This document shows positions 3 to 34,644 of a DNA stretch of 64,000 nt, piece by piece. Position 1 is the stretch's first letter, and every line of letters begins with the position of its first letter. The notes beneath the pieces were generated by a model. That model worked only from the letters and a program-made list of their open reading frames with translations. It had not been told where the DNA came from and did not search any database. The stretch is from Pseudomonadota bacterium (GTDB lineage: Bacteria > Pseudomonadota > Gammaproteobacteria > Burkholderiales > Burkholderiaceae_C): positions 24,504-88,503 of the forward strand of contig JAZJZJ010000110.1 in assembly GCA_040389925.1 (NCBI GenBank), written 5' to 3'. Made by a program: the position numbers and the translations under genes.

Positions 3-626
3 CCGATCCGTTACCTGCCGCTCAGCCTGGGCTACTCGGCCACCGTGAACGACAAGCAAGGCTTCTGGCAGGTCGGCACCGGGTTCACGGCGGCGCTGCG
101 CGGGCTCACGAGCCGCGCGCAGGAGTTCGCCGACAAGCGCTACAACGCGCAGAGCAATTTCGCGATCGTCAAGTTCGACCTCGCGCGCACCCAGACCCTG
201 CCGCGTGATTTCTCGCTGTTCGCCAAGCTCGAAGGCCAGATCACCGGCCAGCCGCTGATCAGCAACGAGCAATTCGTCGCCGGCGGTGCCGACAGCGTAC
301 GCGGCTACCTCGAGGCCGCCGCGGTCGGCGACAACGCGCTGCGCGGATCGATCGAGCTGCGCAGCGGTGCGCTCGCACCCGAGCGCTGGAGCTGGCTGGG
401 CGGGCTGCGCGCGCACGTCTTCCTCGAAGGCGCGGCGCTGTGGCTGAAGTCGCCGCTGCCGGCGCAGCAGCAGCGTTTCGGCCTGCTCGGCACCGGCGTC
501 GGCCTGCGCGTGCAGGCGCGCGAGCACGCGAGCCTGGCGCTCGACGTTGGCTGGCCGCTGCGTGACGTCGGGCAAACGCACAAGGGCTCGGTGCGCTTGC
601 ACGCCAGCGGTCTGTTCGAGTTCTGA
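3..626 (+). CDS. TpsB/ShlB/FhaC-family two-partner secretion outer-membrane transporter, C-terminal part (5' end outside window)
   Basis: Frame is open from the window edge. It carries the Omp85/TpsB loop-6 motif (EQFVAGGADSVRGY), amphipathic beta strands and a terminal Phe (GLFEF). Confidence 0.9.
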   Translation, partial: PIRYLPLSLGYSATVNDKQGFWQVGTGFTAALRGLTSRAQEFADKRYNAQSNFAIVKFDLARTQTLPRDFSLFAKLEGQITGQPLISNEQFVAGGADSVRGYLEAAAVGDNALRGSIELRSGALAPERWSWLGGLRAHVFLEGAALWLKSPLPAQQQRFGLLGTGVGLRVQAREHASLALDVGWPLRDVGQTHKGSVRLHASGLFEF

Positions 627-639
627 CCCGACCACGCCC

Positions 640-2913: not shown

Positions 2914-3194
2914 TCCGAACGCATCATGGGTGCCGTCACCCGAACCGATCGAAGGTCACACCGTGTCGGTAGATTCAATCGGTCTTTTGGATCGTCGTCA
3001 CCGGGGCCGCTGCGGACTAGGCTGAAGTAGCCACCCACCGCAGCGCCCCGCACACCGTGGCGACACAGCGGACTTCTACAGTCGCACGCATCGGAAGGTT
3101 CCCGCTCAGGGAGGCACGCCGATGTGATCGGGCTCCGACGGTCGGGTGAATCGGCAATCGGGACCCTGCACAAGCGTTACGTGAACATCAACCC

Positions 3195-3200
3195 AGGAGA
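3195..3200 (+). promoter_or_regulatory. Ribosome binding site of the VPLPA-CTERM gene
   Basis: AGGAGA 9 nt upstream of ATG 3210. Confidence 0.7.
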
Positions 3201-3209
3201 GAACTCTCA

Positions 3210-4052
3210 ATGAAACTGAAACTCAAGATGCTCGCCGTCGCCGCGGCGATGGCCTCGATGGCCGGCGCGGCCCACGCCGACCTGACGGCTCCCGGCTCCG
3301 CCAACGGCAGCCTGGCGCTGGTCGCGTTCAACACGGTGACCGGCTCCTACTACATGCGCGACACCGGCTTTCTCCTCAACAGCTTCCTGCCCACCGGCGT
3401 GACCACGCTGTCGGGTGACGGCAGCGTTGCTGGCGACAAGACCCCGGCCGCCGGCCTGCTGCTCGACAAGACCAACACCGCCTCGTTCGCCGACGCGTCG
3501 TTCAGCGGCTGGCTCGCCGGCCAGACCTTTGCCGACGTAAAGTGGTTCGTGAACGCCGTTGACGCCGTCGGCACCACGACCGCGACGAACGTCAAGCGTT
3601 TCATCACCTCGTCGGCCAACGCCGACGAATTCGCCACCAACGGCAACCTCGACGGCTTCATCGCCAACGCGGGTGCGGGCAGCCTGACGACGCAGTTCGG
3701 CACGGGCGGCTTGTCGGTGACCGGTTCCGGTGCGCCCACCGCATGGGGCACCAACTTCACCCTTGGCGCCGATGGCCTTGCCGCGGTCGACCAAAGCGTG
3801 AGCCTGTTCTACTTCTCGCGCACGGTCGGCACGGGTTCGACCACCTTGGCGGCCAACAAGACGCAATTCGGCAACGCCACCGGTTTCGCCACCGTCACGC
3901 TCGCCTCCAGCGGCGACTTCACCTACAACCTGGCGGGCGAGGCTCCCGCCGCCGTGCCGGTGCCGGCCGCTGCCTGGCTGCTGGGCTCCGGCCTGGTGGG
4001 CATGGGCGGCTTCATGCGCCGCCGCAAGGCCGCGGCCGCCGCCCAGGCCTGA
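3210..4052 (+). CDS. VPLPA-CTERM (PEP-CTERM-like) sorted surface protein
   Basis: Sec signal ending AAHA, an A/G/S/T-rich body, and a C-terminal VPVPAAAWLLGSGLVGMGGFM-RRRK (motif, TM helix, basic tail). Confidence 0.93.
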   Translation: MKLKLKMLAVAAAMASMAGAAHADLTAPGSANGSLALVAFNTVTGSYYMRDTGFLLNSFLPTGVTTLSGDGSVAGDKTPAAGLLLDKTNTASFADASFSGWLAGQTFADVKWFVNAVDAVGTTTATNVKRFITSSANADEFATNGNLDGFIANAGAGSLTTQFGTGGLSVTGSGAPTAWGTNFTLGADGLAAVDQSVSLFYFSRTVGTGSTTLAANKTQFGNATGFATVTLASSGDFTYNLAGEAPAAVPVPAAAWLLGSGLVGMGGFMRRRKAAAAAQA

Positions 4053-4060
4053 TTCAACGC

Positions 4061-4081
4061 GGGCTGACTCCAGCCCTTTTT
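4061..4081 (+). terminator. Intrinsic terminator after the VPLPA-CTERM gene
   Basis: GGGCTG-ACTC-CAGCCC stem-loop followed by TTTTT. A second GC-rich hairpin lies at 4089-4112. Confidence 0.75.
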
Positions 4082-4168
4082 GTCCCACCCGCCGCGGCTT
4101 CCGCTGCGGCGGTCTGGGCGGAGCGTTGCCAGAAATTCTCGTTCACACGACTCACCCTCAGGACTCTC

Positions 4169-5608
4169 ATGAAACTCAGCAAAATCTCCCTCGGCGTTGC
4201 CGCCGCCTGCGGCATCGTCGCCGCCCCGGCCCATGCCCTGCTGGCCAGCAGCTACACCAACACCGGCGAGTTCGCCGGCGACACGATGAACATCCGCGTG
4301 TCGGGCGCCACCGCGCAAGACCCGGGCCTGTTGGCTTCGGCACTGCGGTATTGCACCGTCGGTTCGATGACGCGCTACTCGATCTCGAACAACTTCGTGT
4401 ACTTCTGCACCGCCGACACGACCAAGATCACGCCGCGTGCCGGCGCGACCAAGGTTGCGTTCTACAAGTACTCGGTTGGTGGCTCGGGCGCCGGTGTCGG
4501 CCTCGTGAACGCGGGTGCGGCGAACGTGCCCTTCCTCGACCTGACCAAGCTTGCTTCGTCCTGCGCCGGCACCTCGTCGACAGCCGACGTCGACGGCACG
4601 GGCGTGCTCTCCACGTTCCAGGACATCGCCTGCGCCGGCGCCAGCTCCGCGCTGACGACCAACGCCGTCAGCTACATCGGCCTGTCGGACGTCGAGCCGC
4701 AGTTCTTCGGCGCGGCCAGCACCTACAACAACCTGAAGGCCGAAGGCCTGGCCACCGTGATCTTCGGCCTGCCGGTCTCGAAGGTCGCGTACGAAGCGCT
4801 GCAGACCGCGCAGGGCATCACCCCGGGTGGCATCACCGAGGCGGACATGCCGTCGCTGTCGCAAGCGCAACTGACCTCGATGTTCACGCAGGAAGGCCAG
4901 TCCTGGTCCGGCCTGACCGGCGCTTCGCTGGCCGACGACACGATCTACGTCGCCCGCCGCGTCGACAGCTCGGGCACGCAAAAGACCTTCGAGGCGGTAA
5001 TTGCCCGCACCAGCAACGGCACCCCTGGCGCTCGCGAGTGCCAGTCGTCGGTCGAGGCCTTCGTCTCCGGTGTTGCCGCGCTCGACAACACCGCCGCCAA
5101 CCTCGTTTGCGACGGCTCGAACCTCGTCGTCAACGGCAGTGGCAGCGGCCAGGTCGCGGCTTGCCTGAACAAGCATCAGGATGGCGCCCGCGGTGCGATC
5201 GGCGTGCTGACGACCGAGACCAAGCAAGCCGCCGGCGGCAAGTTCCGCTTCGTGAAGATCAACGGCCTGGCTCCGACCCATGCCAACGTGGCCGGTGGCA
5301 AGTACACCCAGTACTCCGATGCCTCGCTGAATACCCGTATCGGCGCGACGCTGCCGACCGCCTCGGCGGCCGGCTACTCGAGCTTCCTGACCAAGCTGAA
5401 GTCGGACTTCTCCGACCCGGCCGTCATCGCGGTGATCAACGGCGGTGTGCAGACCTTCGGCCCGTCCGGCCTGATGGCGCTCGACGCTCTCGAGTCGCCG
5501 GTTCCGGCCGCCGACTACACCGGCGCCACCGGCCGCAACCCCTGGTCGCGTCTGGTCGGCGGTACCGACCTGAACAACTGCCAGACCGGCAAGGCTGCAG
5601 CGTTCTGA
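4169..5608 (+). CDS. Secreted PstS/DING-fold phosphate-binding-like protein
   Basis: Signal peptide MKLSKISLGVAAACGIVAAPAHA. PstS-like motifs occur in order: SGATA, GGSGAG, GLSDVEP, RRVDSSGTQ, GAIGVL. Start corrected to ATG 4169. Confidence 0.75.
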   Translation: MKLSKISLGVAAACGIVAAPAHALLASSYTNTGEFAGDTMNIRVSGATAQDPGLLASALRYCTVGSMTRYSISNNFVYFCTADTTKITPRAGATKVAFYKYSVGGSGAGVGLVNAGAANVPFLDLTKLASSCAGTSSTADVDGTGVLSTFQDIACAGASSALTTNAVSYIGLSDVEPQFFGAASTYNNLKAEGLATVIFGLPVSKVAYEALQTAQGITPGGITEADMPSLSQAQLTSMFTQEGQSWSGLTGASLADDTIYVARRVDSSGTQKTFEAVIARTSNGTPGARECQSSVEAFVSGVAALDNTAANLVCDGSNLVVNGSGSGQVAACLNKHQDGARGAIGVLTTETKQAAGGKFRFVKINGLAPTHANVAGGKYTQYSDASLNTRIGATLPTASAAGYSSFLTKLKSDFSDPAVIAVINGGVQTFGPSGLMALDALESPVPAADYTGATGRNPWSRLVGGTDLNNCQTGKAAAF

Positions 5609-5661
5609 TTTCGCTCGAGAGGCTGCCGCCGCGAGGCGGTGGCTTCCAGCGCGAAACCCGG

Positions 5662-5691: not shown

Positions 5692-5711
5692 CCTTTCGTG
5701 CGAAGCCTGAC

Positions 5712-7736
5712 TCAGGGCAATCGTTCGCAGGCGAACGGCGCCGGCGGCAAACCGTCGCGAGCGCGTTGGACCATCTGGCGATAGGCCGCCTCCAAGTGGC
5801 GCGTGTAGCGCGGCGTGTCGTAGAGCGGCGCGGTGCGCAAGTTGGTCGCGAGGCGCTCGCGCAGCCCGGCCAGCAGGCCCGGCTCGGTGGCCAAGCGGTA
5901 CGCGAGCGTTTCGTAGGCCTCGAACGACTCGGTCACCAGCTCCGGCAGCCCGACAGCGTGCAGAAGGCTCGCGCCCACCCGGCTGGGGAAGGTCGGCCCG
6001 GTGCAGGTCAGCACCGGCAGGCCGGCCCACAGCGCATCGCTGCCGGTGGTGTGCGCGTTGTACGGCCAGCTGTCGAGGAACAGGTCGGCCAGGCGCAGGC
6101 GAGCCAAGTGCTGCTCGTTGCCCAGCGGGCCGCCGAAGACGATGCGTGAGGCCTCGACGCCGCGCGCCGCGGCCTCACGGCGCAGGTTGTCCTGTGCTTC
6201 CGGGGCCTCGCTGTAGAGCATCAGCACGCTGCCGGGCACGCGCTGCAGCAGGCGCATCCAGATGTCGAACACCGCCGGGGTGATCTTGTAGACGTTGTTC
6301 ATGCAGCAGAACACGAAGCCGTGTTCTGGCAGACCGACCTGCGCGCGTCGGTGCGGCTCGGTGCCGACCCGGCGTTGGCGGTCGTTGGGCTGGTAGGCGT
6401 CGGGCAAATACACGACCTGCTCGGTGTAGTGGTGCCGGTCGGCCGGCGGGACCACGACCTCGTCGGCGATCAGGTAGTCGATGTACGGCATGCCGGTCGT
6501 GCCGGGAAAGCCGAGGTAGTTGACCTGGATCGCCGTCGGCCGCGCCGCGAACAGGTGGTGGCGCGCGCGCCCGAAGTAGCCGTTGAGGTTGACCAGGATG
6601 TCGATGCCGCGCTCGCGCACCGCGGCCACCGCTGCCGCGTTGGCCAGCCGGCGGATCGGTACGATCTCGGTCGCGGCTTCGATGCGGCGCCGCAAGCTGC
6701 TGCAGTCGCCCCAGCCGTTGTCGAACGCGACGATCTCGAAGCCCGCGCGGTCGTGCAGTTCCAGCACCTCGGTCAGCAGCACCGAGGTCGCCTGGTTGCG
6801 AAACTCGCCGGCCACGTAGCCGACGCGGATCTTCGGGCCGTGGCCGATCCTCGCTTTCGGCAGCGACGCAGATCGGTCCGGCAGGTAGGCGGTGGCGTAG
6901 TTGCGCGCGGCGCGCAGCAGCAGTTCGGGCGACGCGCAGTAGCCCTGCAGGCCGAACGGTTCGGCGGCGAGGTGACCCGCGCTCACGGCCGCTTCGATGC
7001 GCTGCTGCAGGTGATCGAGCGCGGTCCAGTCGGCGCCCAGCATCTTGGTGTGCATCAACCGGCCCGCGACGAGCGGCCGGTCGGGTTGCAGCTGCAGCAG
7101 GCGCTCGAACACCAGCGAGGCATCCTCGAAGTGGCGCTGGTCCTGCAGGGTCTGGCCGAACAGTTCGATCACGTCGAGCCGCGTCGGGTCGATCTGCAAC
7201 GCCCGCTGGAAGCTGGCCCCGGCTGCTTCGGGGCGGTCGAGGTGGCGCTGCATCACGCCGAGCGCGGCCCAGGCGTCGGCCGCGTCAGGGTGGTGCTGCA
7301 CGGCGTCCTGGAAGCCGGCCAGCGCCTCGTCGGCGCGGCCCTGCTCGTCGAGCGTGGTGGCCCGGTGCAGCCGCGCCATCAGCTGCAGCTGGGCGTCGCC
7401 CGGGTCGAGCGCGGCGGCGCGCTCGAAATGCGTGCCAGCCTCAGCGTTGAGCCCCTGCCGCCGCAGCGCTCGCGCCAAGTCCGCATGGGCCTGCGCGTGA
7501 TCCGGCTGCGCCGCCACGGCGGCGCGGAACCAGTGCACCGATTCGTCGCCTCGCTCCTGTTCGGCCGCGAGCGAGCCCAGGCCTCGCATCGCGTCAAGGC
7601 GGCCCGGCTGGCGCGCCAGCAGCGCGCGAAAACCGGCCTCGGCGTCCGACCAGGGACGGGCATCGTGCAGGCGCTGCGCGGCCCGCAGCGGGTCGAGTGC
7701 GCCGGTCGGCGGGGAAGGGGCGGCGGAAGTGGTCAT
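5712..7736 (-). CDS. TPR-containing GT41 O-GlcNAc transferase-like protein (OGT/SEC-like)
   Basis: TPRs, then DILVNLNGY, VNYLGFPGTTG, NNVYKIT and DSWPYNAHTTGSDALWAGLP. No signal peptide. Confidence 0.92.
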   Translation of the reverse strand: MTTSAAPSPPTGALDPLRAAQRLHDARPWSDAEAGFRALLARQPGRLDAMRGLGSLAAEQERGDESVHWFRAAVAAQPDHAQAHADLARALRRQGLNAEAGTHFERAAALDPGDAQLQLMARLHRATTLDEQGRADEALAGFQDAVQHHPDAADAWAALGVMQRHLDRPEAAGASFQRALQIDPTRLDVIELFGQTLQDQRHFEDASLVFERLLQLQPDRPLVAGRLMHTKMLGADWTALDHLQQRIEAAVSAGHLAAEPFGLQGYCASPELLLRAARNYATAYLPDRSASLPKARIGHGPKIRVGYVAGEFRNQATSVLLTEVLELHDRAGFEIVAFDNGWGDCSSLRRRIEAATEIVPIRRLANAAAVAAVRERGIDILVNLNGYFGRARHHLFAARPTAIQVNYLGFPGTTGMPYIDYLIADEVVVPPADRHHYTEQVVYLPDAYQPNDRQRRVGTEPHRRAQVGLPEHGFVFCCMNNVYKITPAVFDIWMRLLQRVPGSVLMLYSEAPEAQDNLRREAAARGVEASRIVFGGPLGNEQHLARLRLADLFLDSWPYNAHTTGSDALWAGLPVLTCTGPTFPSRVGASLLHAVGLPELVTESFEAYETLAYRLATEPGLLAGLRERLATNLRTAPLYDTPRYTRHLEAAYRQMVQRARDGLPPAPFACERLP

Positions 7737-7968: not shown

Positions 7969-10900
7969 ATGAAAACCCGTTCTGCTCGTTCCCGTGTCGC
8001 TCCTCCGGCTCGCGATGAGGCTTGGCCGCAGCAGAGCAGTTGCAGCGTGCTGGTGCTGGCGGGCTTGGGCCTGCTGGGCCTGGCGCTGCCGCACGCAGTG
8101 CAGGCGCAGACCGCGGGCGCCGTGCTGCCCGCCAACACCGTGCCGGTGCTGCGCAGCGTGGTCAGCGGCCAGGCGGTGGTCAACGCGCCGGTGCTGGGGG
8201 CAGGGCGCTCGCTGCTGACGATCGACCAGAGCTCGCAGCGCGCCATCATCGACTGGCGTTCGTTCAACATCGGCAGTGCCGCCGAGGTGCAGTTCCGCCA
8301 GCCCAACAGCACGGCGTCGACCTTGAACCGGATCTACGACGCCAACCCGACGCTCATCCAGGGCAAGCTCACGGCCAATGGCCAGCTGCTGCTGATCAAC
8401 CAGAACGGCATCCTGTTCGACCGGGGTGCGCAGGTGAACACGCAATCGCTGGTGGCCTCGACGCTGAACCTGACGAACGAGCGTTTCCTGTCGGGTGTGC
8501 TCACCGATGGCGGCCTGACGAAGCCGGCGTTCGAGGGCGGCTACGACGCCGCCGGCAACACGCTGGCCGGGCGCCCCGACGGGACGCGCCCGGGCGACAT
8601 CGGCGTCGGTACCTTCGGCGCGGCGGATGCGGCGGCGCCGAAGCTCGCGGCCAACGCCGGCGGCTCGATCATGATTTTTGCGCCCCGCATCGACAACCAG
8701 AGCGGGCTGATCAGCGCACCCGATGGCCAGGTGATCCTGGCGGCCGGCGCCAAGGCCTACCTGGCGCTCAACGACGACACCAACGACATCACGCTGCGCG
8801 GCTACCGCGTCGAGGTCGAGGCGGTGCCGGACGGCCCGGCGCTGAACCTGAGCAACCTGATCCGCAATGCCGGCGAGATCAGCGCCGACCGCGGCAACGT
8901 GTCGCTGGCGGCGCTGGCCGTCAATCAGGAAGGCCGCGTCTCGGCCAAGACCGCGGTGCAGAGCAACGGCTCGATCTACCTGAAGGCGCGCACCAAGGAC
9001 GGCGCGCAGTCGGGTGCGGTGAGCTTCAAGGCCGGCAGCGTGACCGAGGTCGTGCCGGATGCGGCCGACACCAGCACCGTGGCCGACAGCCAGGACTACA
9101 CGCTCTACCGCGGCGTGATCGAGGTGACCGGCCGCACGATCGTCAACGAGGGCACGCTGCGCGTGCCGGGCGGGCGCATCGCGCTGACCGCCGCCGACGC
9201 CACCGACCCGACGGCGGCGCGCGTCTACCTCGGCGCCGGCAGCGAAACCAGCGTCGCCGGTGCCTGGGCCGATGTGGACTACAAGAAGAACCTGCAGACC
9301 TTCCGCGTCACCTCCAACGAGCTGAAGAACTCGCCCGACCAGAAGACCGGCATCCTGCGCGGCGCCACCGTGACCGTGGATCTGCGCGAGGCCAACAACA
9401 TCCTCGAACTCGATGGCTACCGCGACATCGTGGCGCGCACCGTGACCGAGAAGGCCGGCGCCGGCGGCGAGCTGCAGATCGCCTCCAGCGGCTCGGTGGT
9501 CCAGCGCAGCGGGGCCCTGATCGACGCCTCCGGCGGCGGCTACCGCTACAACGGCGGCACCGTCAACACCTCGCGCCTGCTCGGCGACGACGGCAAGATC
9601 TACGACATCGCCAGCGCGCCCGAGCTGCGCACCTACACCAGCCTGCTCGACAGCTTTCAGCGCACCGACGCACGCTGGGGCCAGACCACCACGATGGCCA
9701 ATCCGCTCGGCACCGTGGGCGCGTACCAGGCCGGTTATTCCGAGGGCTTGGCGGGCGGCTTGGTGGCGATCAACGCCAACGCCGGGCTGGTGCTGGACGG
9801 CACGCTGAAGGGCGGCGTGACGGTGGGTTCGCACCAGCTAGCGAGCGCAGCGCGCGGTGCGACCTTGCGCATCGGCGAGTACGTGCCGACAACCGGCAGC
9901 TTCGCGCAGGCGCAGCGCATCGGCAACCTCACCTGGAGCCAGCAGGCGACCGACATGCTGGGCGCCAGCTTCAACGCGAACACGGCGCTCAGCGAACTGC
10001 AACGCGACGCGGTGACGCTGGCTGCGGGCCAGGTGTTCGGTGCCGCGACCCCCTCGGCCGACGGCCGCGTCGAGTCCGGCTTCGGTACGGTCGAGCTGAA
10101 CGTGAACGGCCGCATCGTCGTGCCGTCCGAGGTCAGCATCGTGGCGGACGTCGGCGGCGCGCTGATCCTGCGCGCGCCGCAGATCGACATCGCGGGCGAC
10201 ATCCGCCTGCCGGCGGGCAATCTGTTGATCCGTCCGGTGCTGCCACAGAGCGAGCCGATCTCACCCGACCTCGTCAGCGCGATCGAGCGGGTAACCGTGC
10301 GCGCTGGCGCCGACCTGTCGACCGCGGGCACATGGATCAACAACGCCAACCGCGACGGGTCGTTCGTCGGCACGCCCACGCCCTCCGGGCGATTGAATGC
10401 GGACGCGAGCGCGACGGCGCTGGCGATCGACGGCGGCAACATCACGATCCAGATCGACGACCCGAACCATCAGACCCGCCTCGAACGTGGCGCCACGCTG
10501 GACGTGGGCGGCGGTGCGTCGATCGCCAGCAGCCAGCGCGTCAGCGGCGGCAAGGGCGGCAAGTTGGCGATCGGCAACGGCAGCGCGAGCCAGACCAGCT
10601 CGGACTGGATGCAGGCCGAGCTGCGCGGTTTCGCGCTCGCCAACGGCGGCGAGCTGAACCTGAGCTTGGCGCGTGCGGTGATCGATGCGGATGACGCGAA
10701 CGGCGTGCTGCCCGGCAACACCACGCGGCTCGAGGCCGGGCTGTTCTCGGACCGGGGCTTCTCGAAGATCGGCATCACGGCCACCGACGGGATCGACATC
10801 GTCGCCGGCACGCAGCTGCTCGTGCAGCAGAAGAACCTGCTCGTCGACCCGCTGGCCGCGGCGCAGCTGCCCACCGGCGGCGACCTGGCGTCGATCGCCG

Positions 10901-24316: not shown

Positions 24317-25003
24317 ATGGTTGATTCCCTCCTTCGCCGCGCATCCGCAGGGGCCTTGCCGCTGGCGCTGGCGCTCGCCCTGGGCAGCGCGACCGGTGGC
24401 GCCTGGGCGCAGGGCGCCGACAAGAGCGCCGAGAGGGCCGCGCGCCGCATGCAGCTCCAGATGCAGAACCTGCAGCAACAGGTGCAGGACGCCCAAGCCG
24501 CCAAGAGCAAGATCGAGACCGACAAAGCAACACTCGACAAACAAGTGCTGGACCAGGCGCAGCAGTTGGCGCGGCTGAAGGGCGCGTTGCCCCGGGCCAA
24601 CCAGCAGCTGACCGCAGCAGAGGCGGAGCGTGCCCGCTTGGCGGCCATGGTCGCCGCACTCGAAAAACAGCTCGCCGAGCAGAAGCGTGACGCCGATGAG
24701 GCGCTGGCGCTGAAGGGCCGCGAGCTGGTGCAGTTCACGAAGGCACGCGACGAGCAGCAGACGCAGCTGCAGCGCCGGCTCGACGATCAGCTCGGCCAGG
24801 TGGCCGAATGCAGCGTGAAGAACGACCGGCTGATCAAGCTGAGCGCGGAGTTGCTCGACCGCTATCGCACCAAGACCGCTTCCGATGCGCTGCGCCAGCG
24901 CGAGCCGGTACTCGGCTTCGGCGACGTGCAGATGTTCAACCTCGTCCAAGACTATCGCGACAAGACCGACGCCGAGCGCTTTTCCCCATCCATCAACAGG
25001 TGA
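24317..25003 (+). CDS. Exported coiled-coil protein of unknown function
   Basis: Signal peptide ending AWA, long Q/A/E/L heptads, and a C-terminal CSVKNDRL..REPVLG segment. Confidence 0.75.
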   Translation: MVDSLLRRASAGALPLALALALGSATGGAWAQGADKSAERAARRMQLQMQNLQQQVQDAQAAKSKIETDKATLDKQVLDQAQQLARLKGALPRANQQLTAAEAERARLAAMVAALEKQLAEQKRDADEALALKGRELVQFTKARDEQQTQLQRRLDDQLGQVAECSVKNDRLIKLSAELLDRYRTKTASDALRQREPVLGFGDVQMFNLVQDYRDKTDAERFSPSINR

Positions 25004-25014: not shown

Positions 25015-25689
25015 ATGACCTCCCATCGCGCACTGAAGTTCGTCCCGCGCCTGACCAGGATCACCGCGACGTTCAGCCTCAGTTTGCTAGCCGCCTGCTC
25101 CAGCATGTCCCTGCCGTTCTTCGAGAGCTCGGCACCTGCTGCAGGGCCCTACCCGGGACCGTCGCGAAACATGGGGGACCGCCTCGACGCCGTCCTGGTG
25201 ACCGACCCGGCCTACCTGATCGGCCCCGAAGACGCGCTCGAGATCGCGGTCTGGCGCGACGAGACCTTGAAGGCGGCGGCGCTGGTGCGTCCCGACGGCG
25301 GCATCTCGTTTCCGCTGGCAGGCGACTTCATCGTCGCGGGCAAGACCGCGTCGCAGGTGCGTGACGAACTCGTCAAGCGACTCGAGAAGTTCATCCCGGA
25401 GCCGGTGGTCACGGTCTCGGTGGTGCGGGTGGCGAGCTACCGCATCTACGTGCTGGGCCGTGTCAACAAGCCGGGCGACTTTCAGGTCGGGCGCAACATC
25501 GACGTGCTGCAGGCGCTGAGCATCGCCGGCGGCATGACGCCGTTCGCGTCGGAAGACGGCATCCGTGTCATTCGCAAGATCGACGGCAAGTCCGTCTCGA
25601 TCCCGTTCCAGTATTCCCGGGTGCGAAGGGGCGGGGATCTGTCGCAGAACATCACGCTGAAAAGCGGAGACGTGCTGCTGGTTCCATGA
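25015..25689 (+). CDS. Polysaccharide export lipoprotein (short Wza/OPX family)
   Basis: Lipobox LLAAC; YLIGPEDALEIAVW; VRPDGGISFPLAG; SLBB domain; LKSGDVLLVP. Confidence 0.92.
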   Translation: MTSHRALKFVPRLTRITATFSLSLLAACSSMSLPFFESSAPAAGPYPGPSRNMGDRLDAVLVTDPAYLIGPEDALEIAVWRDETLKAAALVRPDGGISFPLAGDFIVAGKTASQVRDELVKRLEKFIPEPVVTVSVVRVASYRIYVLGRVNKPGDFQVGRNIDVLQALSIAGGMTPFASEDGIRVIRKIDGKSVSIPFQYSRVRRGGDLSQNITLKSGDVLLVP

Positions 25690-26924
25690 GTCCGGCTCGC
25701 GTCGAGCGGCGCTGGCAGGCGCTGTGCGTCGCGACCCTGGGCCTGGCACCCATCGCGGCGCGGGCCGACCTGTGGTCGATCGAAAACAGCGCGAGTTCGC
25801 GGCTGGAATGGAATGACAACGCCGCGCTCGCTCACGCCTCGCCCGGCAGCGTGAACACGCTGTCCTTGTCCAACGCGCTCAACGCCTCGCGGCAACTGGA
25901 GAACTCGGTGACCCGCATGAAAGCCGATATCACCGCGCTGCGCCAGCAGGGTGCCGGCGGGCAGGACCGGATCGACGGCCAGCTGGCGCTGACGCAGTTG
26001 TTCAGCGACCCGTTGAACAGCCTGAACCTCGCCGCGCAGTACTCGCAGGACTTCAACGACGTGGTCCGGAGTGCCGATGTGACCGTGGGTCAGGGACGGC
26101 GCCGGACAACGCTGCTCTCGGCCGGCTGGTCGCGCGCATTGTCCGAGCGGCTGAGCGCGAGCACCCAGCTGTCGGTCGGGCGCACCGCCTACGGGCGGGC
26201 GTTGTCGGGCGCGGTCGGGTTCCGCGACACTGCGCTGTCGGGCGGGGTGTCGTATGCGTTGTCCGAGATCGCCAGCCTGAGCCTGCAGGCCAGCCGTTCC
26301 GGCTACCGCGCCGCCGACGACCGCAACCGCTCGACCACCGACGCCGTCAACCTGAGCCTGGCGGGGGCGATCTCCGACCGGTCCAGCGGCTCGGTGGGCC
26401 TCGGCGCTTACCGAACGGCGAGCGAAGCGCAGGGCGCACGCCTTGCCTGTCCGCTCGCCACCGCCTTGTGCGAGGCGGGCCTGGTGCCGTTCGTGATCGT
26501 CAGCGAGCGTTTCGCCAGCGCGCGCCGCGGCCTGCAGTTCAGTGCCGCGGTCCGCTACCAGCTCGATCCAACCACCGATGCATCGTTCAGCGTGGCGCGC
26601 CAGCAGCTGCCCAGCGGCGCCGGGGTGCTGGTACGCAACGACAGCTTGAGCGCGGGCATCAACCGCAGCTTCTCGCCGACGCTCTCGGGCGCGCTGAACT
26701 ATGCGCGCTCGCGCTCGACGCTTCACGAGAGTGCCGGCGCCGCGCGGCCCGGCCACCAGACGCTGTCGTTGTCATTGTCGAAACAGCTCGCGCCGGCGCT
26801 CAGCCTGCAGGCCGGCTACCAGCGCAGCGAGTCGGACTCTTCTGGCCATGGCGCCGGCGCACGGTCGAACAGCGTCAGTGTGACGCTGAAGTACGACTGG
26901 TCCCGGTTCGACGCGAGCCGCTGA
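25686..26924 (+). CDS. EPS-associated outer-membrane beta-barrel protein
   Basis: Signal peptide, Ser-rich alternating beta strands, terminal VTLKYDW strand. Overlaps the OPX stop (ATGA) and sits between the OPX and Wzc genes. Confidence 0.7.
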   Translation: MSPARVERRWQALCVATLGLAPIAARADLWSIENSASSRLEWNDNAALAHASPGSVNTLSLSNALNASRQLENSVTRMKADITALRQQGAGGQDRIDGQLALTQLFSDPLNSLNLAAQYSQDFNDVVRSADVTVGQGRRRTTLLSAGWSRALSERLSASTQLSVGRTAYGRALSGAVGFRDTALSGGVSYALSEIASLSLQASRSGYRAADDRNRSTTDAVNLSLAGAISDRSSGSVGLGAYRTASEAQGARLACPLATALCEAGLVPFVIVSERFASARRGLQFSAAVRYQLDPTTDASFSVARQQLPSGAGVLVRNDSLSAGINRSFSPTLSGALNYARSRSTLHESAGAARPGHQTLSLSLSKQLAPALSLQAGYQRSESDSSGHGAGARSNSVSVTLKYDWSRFDASR

Positions 26925-28794: not shown

Positions 28795-29667
28795 ATGAAC
28801 TCGCTCAATGAACCCGATCCCGGCACGACCCACCCCACGCCACCGAACAGCGCCAAGGTGCACGTCGTGAAGCCGGCAGCAGCGCCCGGTGGTGACGCCG
28901 ACATGCGCCCCGAGCCGCTGCGCATCGAATACACCAGGACCCAGGTCATGGCGGACGCGCTGGTGCGCTTGCAGCGCAGCCACGGCGTGGTCAGGTCGGA
29001 CCGGTCGGCACTGGCCGAATCGTTCAAGATGCTGCGCAACCAGGTGCTGCAGCGCATGCGCGCCGATGGCCATCGGCTGCTGGCGGTGACCAGCCCGCGC
29101 CGCATCGAGGGCAAGTCGCTGACCGCGGTCAACCTGGCGCTGGCGATGGCGGCCGACTTCGACACCGCCGTGCTGCTGGTCGATGCCGACCTGAGCGGCC
29201 AGGGCCTGCAATCGATGTTCGGCCTCGATGGCGCGCGCGGGCTCGGCGACCACCTGATGCACGGCGCGCCGATTGCCGAGTTGCTGGTCAACCCGGGTGT
29301 GCCACGCTTTGTGCTGCTGCCAGCCGGACAGCAGGCGGTGTTGAATTCGGTCGAGCTGCTGGCGACGAAGGCCGCACAGCAGTCGGTGCTCGAAATGACA
29401 CAGCGCTATCAGGATCGCTACATCATCGTCGACCTGCCGCCGCTGCTGGATACCGCCGATGCGCTGGCGTTCCTGCCGCAGGTCGAGACCACCTTGGTGG
29501 TCGTCGAGGAACACGCGACATCGCTCCAGGATCTGGAAGACATGGCCGAGCTGCTGGCCCCGTTCAACCTGCTGGGCACGGTGATGAGCAAGGCCCGCGA
29601 AGCCGAGCCGGCGGCGCATGCGAATCAGCGGCCCTGGTACCGACGCTGGCTCCCGCGCAAGGCCTGA
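28795..29667 (+). CDS. CpsD/CapB-like BY-kinase ATPase domain
   Basis: AESFKMLRNQV; Walker A TSPRRIEGKS; LLVDADL; Walker B IIVDLPP. Confidence 0.9.
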   Translation: MNSLNEPDPGTTHPTPPNSAKVHVVKPAAAPGGDADMRPEPLRIEYTRTQVMADALVRLQRSHGVVRSDRSALAESFKMLRNQVLQRMRADGHRLLAVTSPRRIEGKSLTAVNLALAMAADFDTAVLLVDADLSGQGLQSMFGLDGARGLGDHLMHGAPIAELLVNPGVPRFVLLPAGQQAVLNSVELLATKAAQQSVLEMTQRYQDRYIIVDLPPLLDTADALAFLPQVETTLVVVEEHATSLQDLEDMAELLAPFNLLGTVMSKAREAEPAAHANQRPWYRRWLPRKA

Positions 29668-30606: not shown

Positions 30607-30616
30607 GCCGGAGAAA

Positions 30617-33013
30617 CTACCGCTGCGCCAGCAGCAAGCGCGCTTCATCCAAGTTGGGCAACTTGGCCTTGCTGTCCAGTGCCTTCCTGAGGAATTCCTG
30701 GGCTCTGGTCACGTCGCCCTTCTTGTGCAATGCCAAACCGAGGTGCAGCGCGAGCAGCGGCGCATCGGGTGAGCGCTGCACCGCGCGTTCGAGAATCGGC
30801 GCGGCCTCGGCGTACTGGCCGAGCTTGTAGTGCGCCCAGCCCAGGCTGTCCAGATGGCCCGGGTTGTTCGATTCCTTGAAGCCGCGGGTCAGCGTGAGCG
30901 CACGTTCGAGGCTCGCCTTGTCGCCCTTGGTCTCGATCAGCAAATAGGCCAGGTTGTTGGCGTAGCCATCGTCGTCGGGGGCACGCGCGAGCAGGGCTTG
31001 ATACAGCGCGATGGCTTCGTCGTTGCGCCCGGCACGCGCCAGCCATTGGGCGCGGGTGCCGGGAAGCGACAGGTCGGCGGGAATCGCCTTCTCGCCCTGC
31101 TCGAGCGCGGCGATCGCGGCGCCGAGGTTGCCGCGCAGTGCCAGCACGCGCCCCAGGCTCTGGTAGCCGGCGGCAACCGTGGGTGCGAATTCGATCATCT
31201 TGCGATACGCCTGTTCGGCCAGCGCCAGATCGGCGCGCGCCACCGCCACGTCACCGCGCAACTGGTACGGCAGCACGTTCTTCGGGTCGCGCTTGGCCAG
31301 CGCGTCGATCCGTGCGTTGGCTTCGTCGAAGCGGCGCTGTGCGATCAGGATGCCGATGCCCGACAGGATCGGCCCGGCAACGTCGGGCACCATCTGGCTC
31401 GCCGCGTCGTATTCCTTGAGCGCGGCGTCGTACTTCTTCTGGTCGGAGTAGAGCTGCCCGAGCTTCAGGGCGCCAGTGGGGTCCTTCGGGAACAGCGTTT
31501 TCAGCGACGCAAGGGTCTTCTCCGCGCCGGCGGAGTCCTTCTGTGCCAGCGCCAACTGGGCCTTGAGCTCGTAGGCGCGCAGGTTCTTCGGCGCCGCCTT
31601 GAGCGCGCTGTCGATCTCGGCGGAGGCCGCCTTGTAGTCCTTCGTGTCGGCCATGTCGGCGGCCAGCAGCAGGCGCAACTCGGCGTTGTCGGGCTTGAAC
31701 TTGACCGCATCGACGAGCACCTCGCGGGCGAGCTGGGGCTCGGCCGTCTGGCGATGCGCCTGCGCCAGCAGGCCAGCGACCTCGGGCGATCCGGGCTGGT
31801 CTTTGGCGGCGGCGCGCAGATCGATGATGGCGTTGCGCGCGTCGCCGTCGGCCAGCAGCATGCGGCCGCGCAACACCAGCGCCGTGGCGTCGCGCGGGCT
31901 CGCCGCCAGCACCTCGTTGATCAGCGTGCGGGCTTCGGCGACCTTGCCATTGGCCAGCCGGTCGGCGGCCAGCTGGCTGCGCGCGCTCAGGCCGCTCGGC
32001 GTGTCCTTGTCAATGGCGATGGTTTCCTGGAGCACACGGCGGGCGTCAGCCGTTCGCCCCGAAGCGCGGTACAGGTTGACCAATCCGAGACGCAGCCTCG
32101 CGTCCTTCGGTTTGGCGGCGATCGCGGCGAGGAACTCCTTCTCGGCGACGTCCCGGCCCCGGCGCGACGCCAGAAAATCGAGCAGCACCAGGGTGCGCGC
32201 GCTGTCGTCGGGCTGGGCGCGGATGGCGGCGCGCAGCACCGCTTCGGCCGGGTCGAGCTCGTTGCGGCGCGTGTGATGGATCGCCCACGCGCTCCAGAGA
32301 TCGGCGTTCTTGGGCGCCTGCTCGGTGGTCCGGCGGAAGTAGTCGACGGCCTTCGTTTGCAGTGCCGGATCGGTGCCGCTGGCGGCGATCTGGGCCGCCA
32401 CCTGCAACAAACTCAGGTTCTTCGGGTTGCTCTTCAACGCCGCCTCGATCACCGTCAGCGCGCCGTTCGCGTTGTCCTGCGCGGCGTACAGGCCGGCCAG
32501 CAGCATGCTGGTTTCGACCGGCGCCTCCTTTTGCCCGTCGATCACTGCCCTGGCCTGCGCGATCGCTCCTGCCACATCGCCTGCGCGCGCCGCCAACGCC
32601 GCCTTCATCGTGTGTGCGCCGACGTGGTTCGCATCCGCACCAAGCGCCTCGGCGACCGCCTTCTCCGACTTGCCGACATCACCGGCCATCATGTAGACGC
32701 GGGCCAGCCCGACCTTGGCGTCGACATGGCCAGGCTCGAGCTCCACGGCTTTCGAGAAGCTCCCGAACGCGCGCTGGAGCTCGCGCCGGTTCTCGGCGAT
32801 CTGGCCCGAGAGGAAGTAGGCCTGGGCATTTTTCGGGTCGATCTGGAGCACGTTGCGCACCTCGACATGGGCCTTGTCGAGGTCGGCAACGCGCAGGTAC
32901 GCGGCGCCCTTGTCCAGGCCCGACTGGACCCGGTCCGCCTTGCTGCTGCACGCGGCCAGCAGCACCAACGTGGCACAGAGCGCGAGGGCCCGGAGTGTTT
33001 GACGAAGCTTCAT
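30617..33013 (-). CDS. Exosortase-associated TPR lipoprotein (PrsT-like)
   Basis: Lipobox LLAAC, TPRs throughout, C-terminal ANNLAYLL..LDSLGWAHYKLG. Lies directly downstream of the exosortase gene. Confidence 0.88.
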   Translation of the reverse strand: MKLRQTLRALALCATLVLLAACSSKADRVQSGLDKGAAYLRVADLDKAHVEVRNVLQIDPKNAQAYFLSGQIAENRRELQRAFGSFSKAVELEPGHVDAKVGLARVYMMAGDVGKSEKAVAEALGADANHVGAHTMKAALAARAGDVAGAIAQARAVIDGQKEAPVETSMLLAGLYAAQDNANGALTVIEAALKSNPKNLSLLQVAAQIAASGTDPALQTKAVDYFRRTTEQAPKNADLWSAWAIHHTRRNELDPAEAVLRAAIRAQPDDSARTLVLLDFLASRRGRDVAEKEFLAAIAAKPKDARLRLGLVNLYRASGRTADARRVLQETIAIDKDTPSGLSARSQLAADRLANGKVAEARTLINEVLAASPRDATALVLRGRMLLADGDARNAIIDLRAAAKDQPGSPEVAGLLAQAHRQTAEPQLAREVLVDAVKFKPDNAELRLLLAADMADTKDYKAASAEIDSALKAAPKNLRAYELKAQLALAQKDSAGAEKTLASLKTLFPKDPTGALKLGQLYSDQKKYDAALKEYDAASQMVPDVAGPILSGIGILIAQRRFDEANARIDALAKRDPKNVLPYQLRGDVAVARADLALAEQAYRKMIEFAPTVAAGYQSLGRVLALRGNLGAAIAALEQGEKAIPADLSLPGTRAQWLARAGRNDEAIALYQALLARAPDDDGYANNLAYLLIETKGDKASLERALTLTRGFKESNNPGHLDSLGWAHYKLGQYAEAAPILERAVQRSPDAPLLALHLGLALHKKGDVTRAQEFLRKALDSKAKLPNLDEARLLLAQR

Positions 33014-33033
33014 GGTGAATTGCTCTTCAGGGG

Positions 33034-34644
33034 TCAGTCGGGCACATGGTCCGGCAGGCGCGGGGCGATGGTGCCCAGGAAGGCCGTCAGGCGGCGCTCG
33101 GCGCGCTCGACGCCTTCAGCCGGCAGGATCGGCGTGACCAGCCGCACCAGCGCGCCATCGGAACGGTCGCGGGCGATGCCGTCCCGAAGGATGAACCACT
33201 TGACCGCGACCTCGCTGGTCATCACCCGGCCGCGTTGCCGGAACCAGTAGTAGACGAGCTGACGCTGCTCGCCCTTCTGGATGATGGCCCGGTTGACGGT
33301 CATCGACGCTGCGGTGGCTGTGGTGGCCGGGTTCGGTGCGGACAGGGTCAGCGGCGCCTCGTCGAACTGGGTGATTTCCCAACCGCCGCCCGGAATGCAG
33401 GTGCGCGGCGAATGGGTCGATTGGCCACCGCTCTGGGTGGCGTAGTAGGCGGTATAGAAGTTGACCCACGGCTCGCCCGGCCGGGCGTAGTTCGCGATCA
33501 TGTAGTCGTCGAGCGCCAAGGTCGCGAGCACATCGCGTTCGAGGTGGTCGGCGCGGCCGGCCCAGCCGCCGGGCAGGCTCATCGGGAACTGCGCGAACGG
33601 CGTTCGCTGCGGCCGGATCTGCTCGCGTGCCGGAGCCCACGCGAGCGCTGCGCCAACGGCGGCGAACATCAGGCTGCCGACCAGCATCGGAGTCGAGAAG
33701 CGGCGCAAGCTGACGCGCGCCCCCTTGGCGATCGGCTCCGGGTATTCGAGACCAAAGGCGGTGCGCAATGATTCGGACCGACCACCGATGCGTGCGAGCA
33801 GGCTCATCTCGCCGATCAGCAAGACGATGCACAGCATGAACATGAACCAGCCCTCGAAGTCGTGCAGCAGGCCTTCGGCCATCGCGCTGCCCCAGTACTC
33901 AACCGTGATGCCGATCAGACCGATGCGCAGGCTGTTGATGCCGATGGTCAGCGGAATCGTCGACAGCACGATCAGCGCGCGCTTCCACCATGCACCCTTG
34001 AAGAAGTAGGCGGCCAGGAAGCCGAGCACCATCAGCGGGAACAGGTAGCGCAAGCCGCTGCAGGCCTCGACCACCTGCAGCTTGTAGCTGCCGAGGTCGA
34101 TCACGTTGCCTTCGAGAAAGACGCTGATGTCGAACAGGCGGATCAGGGCGACGCCGATCTCCGACGACACCAACTGCAGTTGCTCCGACAGCTCGCGCAG
34201 CAGAAACTGCGGCAACGGGATCATGAACAACAGGATCGCCAGCGGGACCGCGATGATCCGCGTGCCGCGCCAGCCGATCAGACACACCGACAAGCCGACC
34301 AGCGCGACGATGAAACCGTACTGGCTGAACAGCCGAATCGCGCTGAACTCGCCGATCGCACCCAGCGCCAGCGCGACCCCGACCAGCAGCAGGCCGGTGT
34401 ACGAACCCTGGAGCTCGAACTGGCGCAGCCGATCGCTCTTCTGCCAGATCAGGAAGGCCGAGACCACGGGAATGAAGTAGCCGTAGCTGTACTCCTCGAC
34501 CATCTCCCAGTTCGCCACCATGAAGCGCAGACCGGGGAGAAAGGCCGCGATCACCGCGACCCCGGCGAAGCCGATGGCGAGCCACTGCGTCGCCGCAATC
34601 TTCCACACGGGTGCGGGGTGCTGCGAGACCAATCCTGTTGACAT
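33034..34644 (-). CDS. xrtD: Exosortase D (VPLPA-CTERM type) fused to an EpsI domain
   Basis: Multi-TM protein with EEYSYG, EGNVIDLG, VVEACSGLRYLFPL (Cys), NSLRI (Arg) and LHDFEGW (His). The C-terminal EpsI part has HSPRTCIPGGGW, YYWFRQRGR and DGALVRL. Confidence 0.9.
   Translation of the reverse strand: MSTGLVSQHPAPVWKIAATQWLAIGFAGVAVIAAFLPGLRFMVANWEMVEEYSYGYFIPVVSAFLIWQKSDRLRQFELQGSYTGLLLVGVALALGAIGEFSAIRLFSQYGFIVALVGLSVCLIGWRGTRIIAVPLAILLFMIPLPQFLLRELSEQLQLVSSEIGVALIRLFDISVFLEGNVIDLGSYKLQVVEACSGLRYLFPLMVLGFLAAYFFKGAWWKRALIVLSTIPLTIGINSLRIGLIGITVEYWGSAMAEGLLHDFEGWFMFMLCIVLLIGEMSLLARIGGRSESLRTAFGLEYPEPIAKGARVSLRRFSTPMLVGSLMFAAVGAALAWAPAREQIRPQRTPFAQFPMSLPGGWAGRADHLERDVLATLALDDYMIANYARPGEPWVNFYTAYYATQSGGQSTHSPRTCIPGGGWEITQFDEAPLTLSAPNPATTATAASMTVNRAIIQKGEQRQLVYYWFRQRGRVMTSEVAVKWFILRDGIARDRSDGALVRLVTPILPAEGVERAERRLTAFLGTIAPRLPDHVPD

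What the first reader, a model, noticed from the sequence alone, without database searches (positions are those of the whole stretch)
3..34644. Candidate undescribed envelope system: GT41 protein glycosylation + TPS giant adhesin + receptor-less Ton motor + exosortase D + EPS export in one locus
Seen: tpsB, two TPR-GT41 enzymes, a VPLPA-CTERM protein, a PstS-fold protein, a 3518-aa TpsA, ExbB/ExbD/TonB/porin/coiled-coil, OPX/barrel/Wzc/kinase, a PEP-CTERM protein, a TPR lipoprotein and XrtD, with no housekeeping gene among them. Known separately: Haemophilus hmw1ABC (TpsA, TpsB and a GT41 enzyme); the P. aeruginosa lapAB-pdtAB-exbB2-exbD2 region (DING proteins, TPS and a Ton set); exosortase/EPS loci linked to floc formation. 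Inference: here they build one glycoprotein-polysaccharide surface layer or matrix. I know of no description of the combined system, but cannot search the literature.
Basis: partly seen in the sequence, partly recalled or inferred. Interest (0 to 1): 0.9.

Follow-up and report, generated by a model that had tools for sequence, protein, structure and literature searches.

The report
Motor-linked surface matrix assembly locus
This gene cluster recurs in many freshwater and soil Proteobacteria and joins a giant secreted protein, a proton-driven envelope motor set and a porin predicted to carry an inward stalk to tail-tagged surface proteins and polysaccharide export genes, so it likely builds one protein-plus-sugar coat or floc matrix and would give a long-unexplained Pseudomonas motor operon a testable job.

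Summary
The genes are real. In 80 tpsB loci, 59 carry the PstS-fold gene and 50 a CTERM gene. Porin_5 co-occurs with XrtD in 11 of 22 genomes, expected 2.1. An exosortase lies within 55 kb of the porin in 14 of 50 genomes. Against tight coupling: none of 20 family neighbourhoods holds XrtD or GT41. The GT41s are SPINDLY- and OGT-type, not HMW1C, and follow XrtD rather than the motor. The porin model matches the tether porin OmpM best (Z 26.4): no classical receptor, but a likely outer-membrane partner. The TPS-Ton-porin core is known but unexplained in P. aeruginosa; its tie to exosortase cargo was not found in print. The scan noted a similar operon once on another genome. New variant of a known kind; function inferred.

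The parts
3..626 (+). TpsB (ShlB/FhaC-type outer-membrane transporter), C-terminal part; the gene starts upstream of the window
   Evidence: PF03865, PF01103; full 538-aa ORF on contig C110
640..2913 (+). TPR-GT41a, SPINDLY-like protein O-glycosyltransferase, no signal peptide seen
   Evidence: PF13844; best PDB hit SPINDLY, E 2e-108
3054..3128 (+). Conserved non-coding element before the CTERM gene; distant relatives hold c-di-GMP-I riboswitches at this place
   Evidence: pattern matches in close relatives; no Rfam match here; 1 of 17 predicted pairs compensatory
3210..4052 (+). PepA-like VPLPA-CTERM protein, likely XrtD cargo
   Evidence: TIGR03370 over cut-off, NF033554 weak; family alignment A1
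4169..5608 (+). Secreted PstS-fold protein with insertions and 9 Cys; phosphate-ligand positions invariant
   Evidence: A2, PDB profile hits, AF2 model and Foldseek E 3e-10
5712..7736 (-). TPR-GT41b, OGT/XcOGT-like; Gln where OGT has its His
   Evidence: PF13844; alignment to OGT; 29% identical to GT41a
7969..18525 (+). TpsA, 3518 aa, N-terminal TPS domain and C-terminal DUF3739; no toxin domain found
   Evidence: PF05860, PF12545, TIGR01901
18549..19718 (+).
   Evidence: PF00534, PF13579; between tpsA and exbB in 5 of the relatives
19815..21566 (+). ExbB with periplasmic DUF2341 and LamG domains
   Evidence: PF01618, PF10102, PF13385
21577..21981 (+). ExbD with a membrane Asp (D20)
   Evidence: PF02472
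22008..22700 (+). TonB/TolA-like protein: membrane helix without conserved His, Pro-rich spacer, Gly-rich linker, short C-terminal domain
   Evidence: PF13103; A3; His in 3 of 36
22732..24276 (+). Porin_5: predicted plug-less beta-barrel with N-terminal periplasmic helices and a conserved VRVPY motif; OmpM-like
   Evidence: PF16930; AF2; OmpM1 top in Foldseek and VIA, Z 26.4, rmsd 2.8, 306 aligned
24317..25003 (+). Secreted coiled-coil protein (position of PA0697)
   Evidence: no family; follows the porin in most loci
25015..25689 (+). OPX polysaccharide export protein
   Evidence: PF02563, TIGR03027 under cut-off
25686..26924 (+). Outer-membrane beta-barrel of the EPS cluster
   Evidence: weak TIGR03016, weak PF13505
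26976..28772 (+). Polysaccharide co-polymerase (Wzc membrane part)
   Evidence: TIGR03007 over cut-off
28795..29667 (+). Tyrosine autokinase (Wzc cytoplasmic part)
   Evidence: TIGR03018 under cut-off, TIGR01007
30238..30606 (+). Short CTERM-like protein with a degenerate VPEL tag
   Evidence: weak PEP-CTERM family hits; relatives have a VPLPA protein here
30617..33013 (-). PrsT-like TPR lipoprotein
   Evidence: TIGR02917 299.9 bits against 312.2; lipobox visible in the sequence
33034..34644 (-). Exosortase XrtD fused to an EpsI domain; C195, R240 and H261 present
   Evidence: TIGR04152 570.9 against 400; only exosortase found in this 77%-complete genome
34853..61677 (.). Polysaccharide synthesis and modification genes (WcaF-like acetyltransferase, GT4, GT2, methyl- and acyltransferases), the likely source of the exported EPS
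   Evidence: Pfam and NCBIfam hits; not studied further

Best explanation
The locus encodes a two-partner-secreted giant protein, an ExbB-ExbD-TonB-like motor set, a porin predicted to carry a periplasmic stalk, exosortase-tagged proteins with their exosortase, and a polysaccharide export chain, and it likely assembles one protein-plus-polysaccharide surface matrix (floc or biofilm coat). Proposed steps. (1) EpsA here, and c-di-GMP riboswitches in some relatives, would switch it on for surface life (genes shown, control inferred). (2) The PepA-like CTERM protein and the PstS-fold protein, a fixed gene pair, leave through Sec; XrtD would clip the VPVPA tail, and the neighbouring T2SS-like set would carry the pair across the outer membrane, as Hxc does for LapA in P. 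aeruginosa (inferred by analogy). (3) TpsB secretes TpsA as a long adhesin or scaffold (from family knowledge). (4) The motor likely acts not on an iron-type receptor but on the periplasmic helices of the OmpM-like porin, directly or through the coiled-coil protein, to tether the envelope or to energise release and placement of the surface proteins (least certain step, about 0.35). (5) OPX, PCP and the kinase export the polysaccharide that the surface proteins would bind to the cell. (6) The two GT41s are a clade-level add-on that would O-glycosylate the cargo in the cytoplasm before export.
For: Gene content. One + strand run from tpsA to the kinase with gaps of at most 96 nt. Family sample: an exosortase in 19 of 20 genomes with a full porin against 91 of the other 180. 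Class sample: Porin_5 with XrtD in 11 of 22, expected 2.1, p 3e-7; by family 9 of 18 against 17 of 191, p 4e-5. In the genomes of the first 50 of the 80 loci, XrtD lies within 55 kb of the porin in 7 and another exosortase within 36 kb in 7 more. The core thus pairs with exosortase-EPS clusters of different types, and the cargo tail is VPEP in some loci and VP[LVI]P in others. c-di-GMP-I riboswitches sit before the CTERM gene in 9 of 14 loci scanned, of which 7 were picked for the motif; the pattern was in 8 of 41 upstream regions. [quoted passage not shown] Porin fold.
Against: In 20 family-level porin neighbourhoods XrtD, PCP and GT41 were in 0 and OPX in 1 (some cut by contig ends). 11 of 22 porin genomes lack XrtD and 22 of 33 XrtD genomes lack the porin. 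A PUMA3-type version without a PepA-like or PstS-like gene nearby exists (Cupriavidus). Genomes are kin and vary in size, so the p values overstate. Profiles A1 and A2 were built from the 40 porin neighbourhoods, so counts there are partly circular. The TonB-like helix lacks the His used for coupling in TonB/TolA (3 of 36; the role of the His is recalled). The CTERM protein is below the PepA cut-off (26.6 against 80). The element before the CTERM gene here is not an Rfam riboswitch. No expression, localisation or binding data were obtained.
Confidence: 0.55

Rival explanations
1. A surface phosphate-scavenging organelle: the PstS-fold protein is displayed on a TpsA scaffold and hands phosphate to the motor-energised porin, and the EPS and exosortase genes are only neighbours.
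For: Phosphate-ligand positions are invariant in 19 of 19 family members (ligand roles recalled from E. coli PstS). The phosphate porin OprP is the second VIA match (Z 21.5, rmsd 3.2, 291 aligned). The P. aeruginosa counterpart is expressed under phosphate starvation (PMC7035377, passages).
Against: No Pho-box-like site above chance in the window (7 matches against 12.1 expected, none before the CTERM gene) and 0 of 41 upstream regions fit the pattern used. EpsA or c-di-GMP riboswitches sit upstream instead. No ABC permease was found among the neighbouring ORFs scanned. It does not explain the fixed CTERM partner.
Confidence: 0.2
2. Separate surface modules (TPS-Ton-porin operon; XrtD-EPS cluster; GT41s) gathered in one island by shared regulation and horizontal transfer, with no common product.
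For: The modules lie apart in most family-level genomes. Distribution is patchy: 21 of 200 in the family, and not found in the one same-genus genome. The core occurs on plasmids (12 records). A relaxase-like gene lies at the contig start (named from recall). The other three GT41s of this genome sit in a pilin-glycosylation region.
Against: A CTERM cargo gene lies inside the core operon in 50 of 80 loci. The core adjoins exosortase-EPS clusters of two types in unrelated families. The coiled-coil gene ends 11 nt before OPX.
Confidence: 0.2
3. A surface-motility or fibre-retraction machine like the Myxococcus Agl-Glt system, in which the motor drags an outer-membrane adhesin over a slime track.
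For: A motor, a TolA/TonB-like linker, an outer-membrane barrel, an adhesin and EPS genes lie in one locus; the ExbB carries extra periplasmic domains of unknown function (PMC12505986, passages).
Against: No Glt-family hit over cut-off, only TPR cross-hits. No cytoskeletal or GTPase partner in the locus. Many carriers are not known gliders (recalled).
Confidence: 0.05

Closest known systems
P. aeruginosa PUMA3/sigma-VreI regulon: hxc T2SS, lapA, pdtA-pdtB, exbB2-exbD2-tonB4, PA0696-PA0699
   Same: T2SS, a secreted LapA (DING/PstS-fold, fold recalled), TPS pair, ExbB/ExbD/TonB, putative porin and a following signal-peptide protein in similar order. The Ton set is called 'still uncharacterized' (PMC7035377, passages), and the TPS-ExbBD-PA0696 neighbourhood was noted as conserved (PMC2729926, passages). 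A locus of this type in Cupriavidus is 36-63% identical in TpsB, ExbB, ExbD and porin.
   Different: Here EpsA replaces vreAIR, no Pho box was found, YbjN and the PPIase are absent, the T2SS is a different GspG-rich set, the PstS-fold protein is a larger Cys-rich family, and a PEP-CTERM cargo, an exosortase, EPS export and GT41s are attached. PAO1 proteins were not compared directly.
PEP-CTERM/exosortase floc systems (EpsH/XrtB, XrtA-PrsT-PepA; XrtD with VPLPA-CTERM)
   Same: Exosortase, PrsT-like lipoprotein, Wzc-type EPS export, a PepA-like cargo and EpsA. Haft 2006 proposed passage through the outer membrane by an unknown route (PMC1569441, passages).
   Different: No TPS, Ton set, porin or PstS-fold partner appears in the passages seen.
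OmpM tether porins (Veillonella OmpM1)
   Same: Best structural match of the barrel (Foldseek E 3.5e-16; VIA Z 26.4, next 21.5); both have N-terminal periplasmic helices.
   Different: OmpM is defined by an SLH domain and reported absent from Gracilicutes (PMC10628300, passages). No SLH hit was found here, and the gene sits in a motor operon.
Haemophilus hmw1ABC
   Same: TpsA, TpsB and a GT41 enzyme are encoded together (system recalled).
   Different: The enzymes here are TPR-bearing SPINDLY/OGT types, not HMW1C N-glycosyltransferases, and GT41 is missing from 66 of 80 tpsB loci.

Membership tests
Two-partner secretion (type Vb) | TpsA with signal peptide and N-terminal TPS domain | tested here: met
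   PF05860 77.6 bits against 33.5; TIGR01901
Two-partner secretion (type Vb) | Adjacent TpsB of the ShlB/FhaC family | tested here: met
   PF03865 over cut-off; homologues annotated ShlB/FhaC or POTRA in RefSeq
HMW1ABC | HMW1C-type N-glycosyltransferase | tested here: not met
   NF049992 23 bits against 1000; best PDB hits SPINDLY and OGT
HMW1ABC | TpsA enriched in N-X-S/T sequons | tested here: not met
   27 seen, 21.7 expected from composition
Classical Ton system | ExbB and ExbD with the membrane Asp | tested here: met
   PF01618, PF02472; D20 (role recalled)
Classical Ton system | TonB membrane helix with conserved His | tested here: not met
   His in or at the helix in 3 of 36 family members
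Classical Ton system | Cognate plugged TonB-dependent receptor in the locus | tested here: not met
   No receptor family among the 41 ORFs scanned; the porin model has no plug domain
Classical Ton system | TonB C-terminal domain binds an outer-membrane partner | tested here: inconclusive
   See Tried and rejected
OmpM | Porin-type barrel with a periplasmic helical stalk | tested here: met
   AF2 model pLDDT 77.9; VIA Z 26.4, rmsd 2.8, 306 aligned; parts of the N-terminus are low-confidence
OmpM | N-terminal SLH domain binding the cell wall | tested here: inconclusive
   No Pfam SLH hit at E up to 1; the N-terminal part was not folded and searched alone
OmpM | Homotrimer with a triple coiled coil | not tested
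   Three copies exceed the size limit of the complex tool
PUMA3/sigma-VreI regulon | tpsAB, exbB, exbD, tonB, putative porin and a following secreted protein in one cluster | tested here: met
   Window order against the gene lists
PUMA3/sigma-VreI regulon | vreAIR ECF system with PhoB control, YbjN and PPIase genes | tested here: not met
   EpsA instead; no Pho-box excess; OPX follows the coiled coil
XrtD/VPLPA-CTERM system | Exosortase over the TIGR04152 cut-off with the Cys-Arg-His triad | tested here: met
   570.9 against 400; C195, R240, H261 (triad recalled)
XrtD/VPLPA-CTERM system | Nearby VPLPA-CTERM substrates | tested here: met
   TIGR03370 over cut-off; two more VPxP tails upstream of the window
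PepA (NF033554) | Score over the equivalog cut-off of 80 | tested here: not met
   26.6 bits; 16 of 21 family members match weakly, best E 1.3e-8
PstS/DING | Phosphate-binding-protein fold and ligand residues | tested here: met
   Foldseek E 3e-10; S/T48, S106, D174, R264, S268, G269, T270 conserved in 19 of 19
PstS/DING | DINGGG mature N-terminus (DING) or adjacent pstCAB (PstS) | tested here: not met
   Neither in alignment A2 nor among the neighbours; features recalled
c-di-GMP-I riboswitch | Rfam score over gathering for the element at 3054-3128 | tested here: not met
   No match at E up to 1, while relatives' elements pass

The most novel reading that the evidence does not exclude
The TPS + ExbB/ExbD/TonB-like + OmpM-like porin + coiled-coil set is an unrecognised energised envelope machine, conserved across Proteobacteria, that is the missing outer-membrane step of exosortase sorting. 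The motor pulls on a stalked porin that has no precedent as a Ton partner, and so places a PEP-CTERM/PstS-fold protein pair and a giant adhesin as an ordered surface layer that anchors EPS.
Probability: 0.25. Interest if true: 0.88.

Novelty: new variant of a known kind. Interest (0 to 1): 0.64.

Why it matters
Two questions are open in the papers seen: what the exbB2-exbD2-tonB4-PA0696/7 set of P. aeruginosa does, and how PEP-CTERM proteins reach and bind the surface after exosortase cleavage. This locus ties the two together in genomes, names a fixed cargo pair and a candidate motor partner (an OmpM-like porin in Proteobacteria, where OmpM is reported absent), and points to cultured carriers: Aquabacterium olei, and Methylobacillus gramineus and Methylovulum psychrotolerans. 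That makes both questions directly testable and bears on floc and biofilm formation in water-treatment and freshwater bacteria.

Tried and rejected
Complex prediction of the porin (residues 24-514) with the TonB-like C-terminal part (110-230): no verdict, score 0.04 against a mark of 0.32; it is no evidence either way. Expression: no RNA holder listed for 2900-9900; codon-adaptation analysis was not completed, and rplE was not found in this 77%-complete genome, so the abundance of the CTERM/PstS pair is open. Pho box and sigma-54 patterns (consensus recalled): not above chance in the window and 0 of 41 upstream regions. The conserved element at 3054-3128 as a riboswitch: no Rfam match, 1 of 17 pairs compensatory; the own-genome RF01051 search found none, but its control did not ring either. 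hmw1C analogy rejected. A GT41-porin link vanished after stratifying by XrtD: 3 of 11 against 38 of 305, p 0.16; 8 of 11 against 13 of 22, p 0.36. Sequence searches of solved structures with the porin and the CTERM family found nothing significant. The Atlas gave only Porin_5 clusters for the porin and unnamed clusters for the coiled coil. No TonB-receptor fold ranked near the top of the porin's structure searches. Rows left out before counts: G183 (porin fragments only) was counted among the porin-negative genomes in the family test; G332 (partial) and G138 (already in the family set) were left out of the 20 class neighbourhoods; G416 was not scored for GT41; 30 of the 80 tpsB loci were not searched genome-wide. 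Literature: ten searches found no paper describing PEP-CTERM or exosortase genes together with the TPS-ExbB/D-TonB-porin set. The library lacks most subscription papers, among them the Zoogloea PepA and PdtAB primary papers, which I did not see. No supplements were read; Fig. S5 of PMC2729926 may bear on the neighbourhood claim.
Full report
Observation. The window is G000:C110:24504-88503. Named homologues of its porin are from Rhizobacter, Methylibium and other Burkholderiales. The locus also continues upstream of the window with gspF, gspE, gspD, two gspG-like genes, EpsA (TIGR03020 211 bits, cut-off 170) and two more VPxP-tailed proteins. From tpsA to the kinase the genes form one + strand run with gaps of at most 96 nt. 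The genome holds one copy each of Porin_5, this TpsA/TpsB, the PepA-like and the PstS-like gene, one exosortase (77% complete) and five GT41 genes. The other three GT41s lie beside two PglL/Wzy_C ligases.

What is conserved. In 200 family genomes Porin_5 was found in 21, 20 of them full-length. Their neighbourhoods hold ExbD in 20, ExbB 19, TpsA 18, TpsB 16, a PstS-like gene 15, EpsA 15, a PepA-like CTERM gene 13 and GspD 9, but OPX in 1 and PCP, XrtD and GT41 in 0; several are cut by contig ends. An exosortase somewhere in the genome was found in 19 of these 20, against 91 of the other 180. In 350 class genomes Porin_5 was in 22, XrtD in 33, both in 11 (expected 2.1; one-sided Fisher p 3e-7; by family 9 of 18 against 17 of 191, p 4e-5). 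Twenty class neighbourhoods hold TpsA in 19, ExbB 19, TpsB 18, PstS-like 15, PepA-like 13, PCP 5, OPX 4, XrtD 4 and GT41 2. The two profiles were built from these loci, so those counts are partly circular. Kin are not independent and small genomes lack everything, so the p values overstate.

A largely independent set, the best 80 of 569 tpsB loci from GTDB, gave TpsA 63, PstS-like 59, any CTERM 50, PepA-like 42, EpsA 41, GspD 28 and GT41 14 within 10 kb. The usual order is gspD, gspG, gspG, epsA, CTERM, PstS-like, tpsB, tpsA. In the genomes of the first 50 of these loci, Porin_5 was found in 47 and XrtD over cut-off in 19. XrtD lies within 55 kb of the porin in 7 genomes, and a different exosortase within 36 kb in 7 more. 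Six relatives repeat the window's order from the porin to XrtD and WcaF, one of them from tpsB onward; in four others the porin is followed within about 10 kb by OPX and another exosortase. The core therefore pairs with exosortase-EPS clusters of more than one type. Aquabacterium olei carries CTERM, PstS-like, tpsB, tpsA, exbB, two exbD, tonB, porin and coiled coil on a plasmid. Cupriavidus carries the P. aeruginosa-type version with Hxc-like T2SS, PPIase and YbjN and no PepA-like or PstS-like gene in the stretch read.

GT41. GT41a is closest to SPINDLY and GT41b to OGT/XcOGT; they are 29% identical. The HMW1C-type model scores 23 against 1000, and TpsA has no sequon excess. GT41 is in 21 of 33 XrtD genomes against 41 of 316 others, but shows no link to the porin once XrtD is held fixed. 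Among 42 PepA-like genes, 10 of 16 with VP[LVI]P tails have a GT41 neighbour, against 1 of 25 with VPE/IPE tails; the ten are close kin. Here the two GT41 genes flank the CTERM/PstS pair, which makes that pair the likelier substrate (inference).

The proteins. The PstS-like family folds as a phosphate-binding protein and keeps every ligand position in 19 of 19 members. The CTERM partners form one divergent family that matches PepA weakly in 16 of 21. The porin model (pLDDT 77.9) is a plug-less barrel with N-terminal helices. Both structure searches put the tether porin OmpM1 first (E 3.5e-16; Z 26.4, rmsd 2.8, 306 aligned; next OprP at Z 21.5). No SLH domain was detected, so it resembles OmpM in shape but is not filed as one. 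A VRVPY motif before its last periplasmic helix is conserved in about 80-107 of 122 sequences per column and is a candidate motor contact (inference). The TonB-like protein lacks the membrane His in 33 of 36 members. The porin family is wide: 432 clusters at 50% identity with E up to 1e-30.

Regulation. No Pho box or sigma-54 pattern was found. The window has a shorter conserved element there that Rfam does not recognise. In Methylophaga, c-di-GMP riboswitches precede VPLPA- and PEP-CTERM genes among EPS genes (PMC12530212, passages).

Mechanism and rivals. Best reading (0.55): one surface-matrix assembly locus in which XrtD and the T2SS-like set deliver a CTERM/PstS-fold pair, TpsB delivers TpsA, the motor works on the stalked porin, and OPX/PCP export the polysaccharide. 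Gene content, conservation and predicted folds are shown; every functional step is inferred. Rivals are a phosphate-scavenging organelle (0.2), independent modules in one island (0.2) and a motility machine (0.05).

What is known. The TPS-ExbBD-TonB-porin block is described in P. aeruginosa as an uncharacterised part of the sigma-VreI regulon (PMC7035377, passages) and was noted as a conserved neighbourhood in 2009 (PMC2729926, passages). PEP-CTERM and prsT genes are tied to flocs (PMC9850573, abstract and first part), and the exosortase to EPS structure (PMC13751637, passages); outer-membrane passage was left open in PMC1569441 (passages). DUF2341 on ExbB is listed as of unknown function (PMC12505986, passages). 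OmpM is reported absent from Gracilicutes (PMC10628300, passages). PMC10765051 and PMC8929069 (passages) do not describe this cluster. Ten searches found no account of the combined system; subscription papers and supplements were not seen.

Verdict. A real, widely conserved locus and a new variant of a known but unexplained kind. Interest 0.64.

Noticed in passing
L081:7554-16500 (upstream of the window): T2SS-like set with a TPR-extended secretin and two GspG-like pilins, followed by EpsA; GspD lies within 10 kb of 28 of 80 tpsB loci. It may be a dedicated T2SS subtype for exosortase cargo.
   Followed up: partly
G000:C110:6425-11541 (upstream of the window): Genes resembling UDP-glucose dehydrogenase, GDP-mannose dehydratase, GDP-fucose synthase and a WcaI-like GT4 (named from recall of the sequences); GDP-fucose would suit both the EPS and the SPINDLY-like GT41a.
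   Followed up: no
G000:C110:36-1493: Relaxase-like and mobilisation-like ORFs at the contig start (named from recall), hinting that the region is a mobile island.
   Followed up: no
L121:2437-14562: Three more TPR-GT41 genes beside two PglL/Wzy_C O-oligosaccharyltransferase genes, a likely pilin-glycosylation region.
   Followed up: partly
window:3054-3128: Conserved non-coding element with a GGAAG motif and hairpin, shared with close relatives, at the place where distant relatives have c-di-GMP-I or c-di-GMP-I-GGC riboswitches; possibly a degenerate aptamer or a promoter/operator.
   Followed up: partly
L152:7056-7150, L154:5924-6013, L161:6652-6727, L200:6507-6590: c-di-GMP-I-GGC variant riboswitches directly upstream of the PepA-like gene, which gives that variant class a consistent gene context.
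   Followed up: no
L179:11695-11774: A c-di-GMP-I riboswitch between tpsB and tpsA in a Methylomonas locus.
   Followed up: no
window:5712-7736: GT41b has Gln where OGT has the His of its NHP motif; activity or donor may differ.
   Followed up: no
window:19881-20900: The periplasmic LamG part of ExbB matches PDB 4qvs, named an S-layer domain-containing protein, at E 1.5e-4.
   Followed up: no
G000:C28:67448-69882: A second OPX/PCP export pair, plus about ten classical VPEP/IPEP-CTERM genes elsewhere in the genome, although only XrtD was found; a second exosortase may be unassembled.
   Followed up: no
window:36080-38533 and 49877-51451: Two uncharacterised proteins inside the EPS gene run: an 817-aa FlgD-Ig-domain protein and a 524-aa GDSL-like protein.
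   Followed up: no
L002, L005, L006, L222 and others: Many loci carry two exbD genes in tandem, whereas the window has one.
   Followed up: no
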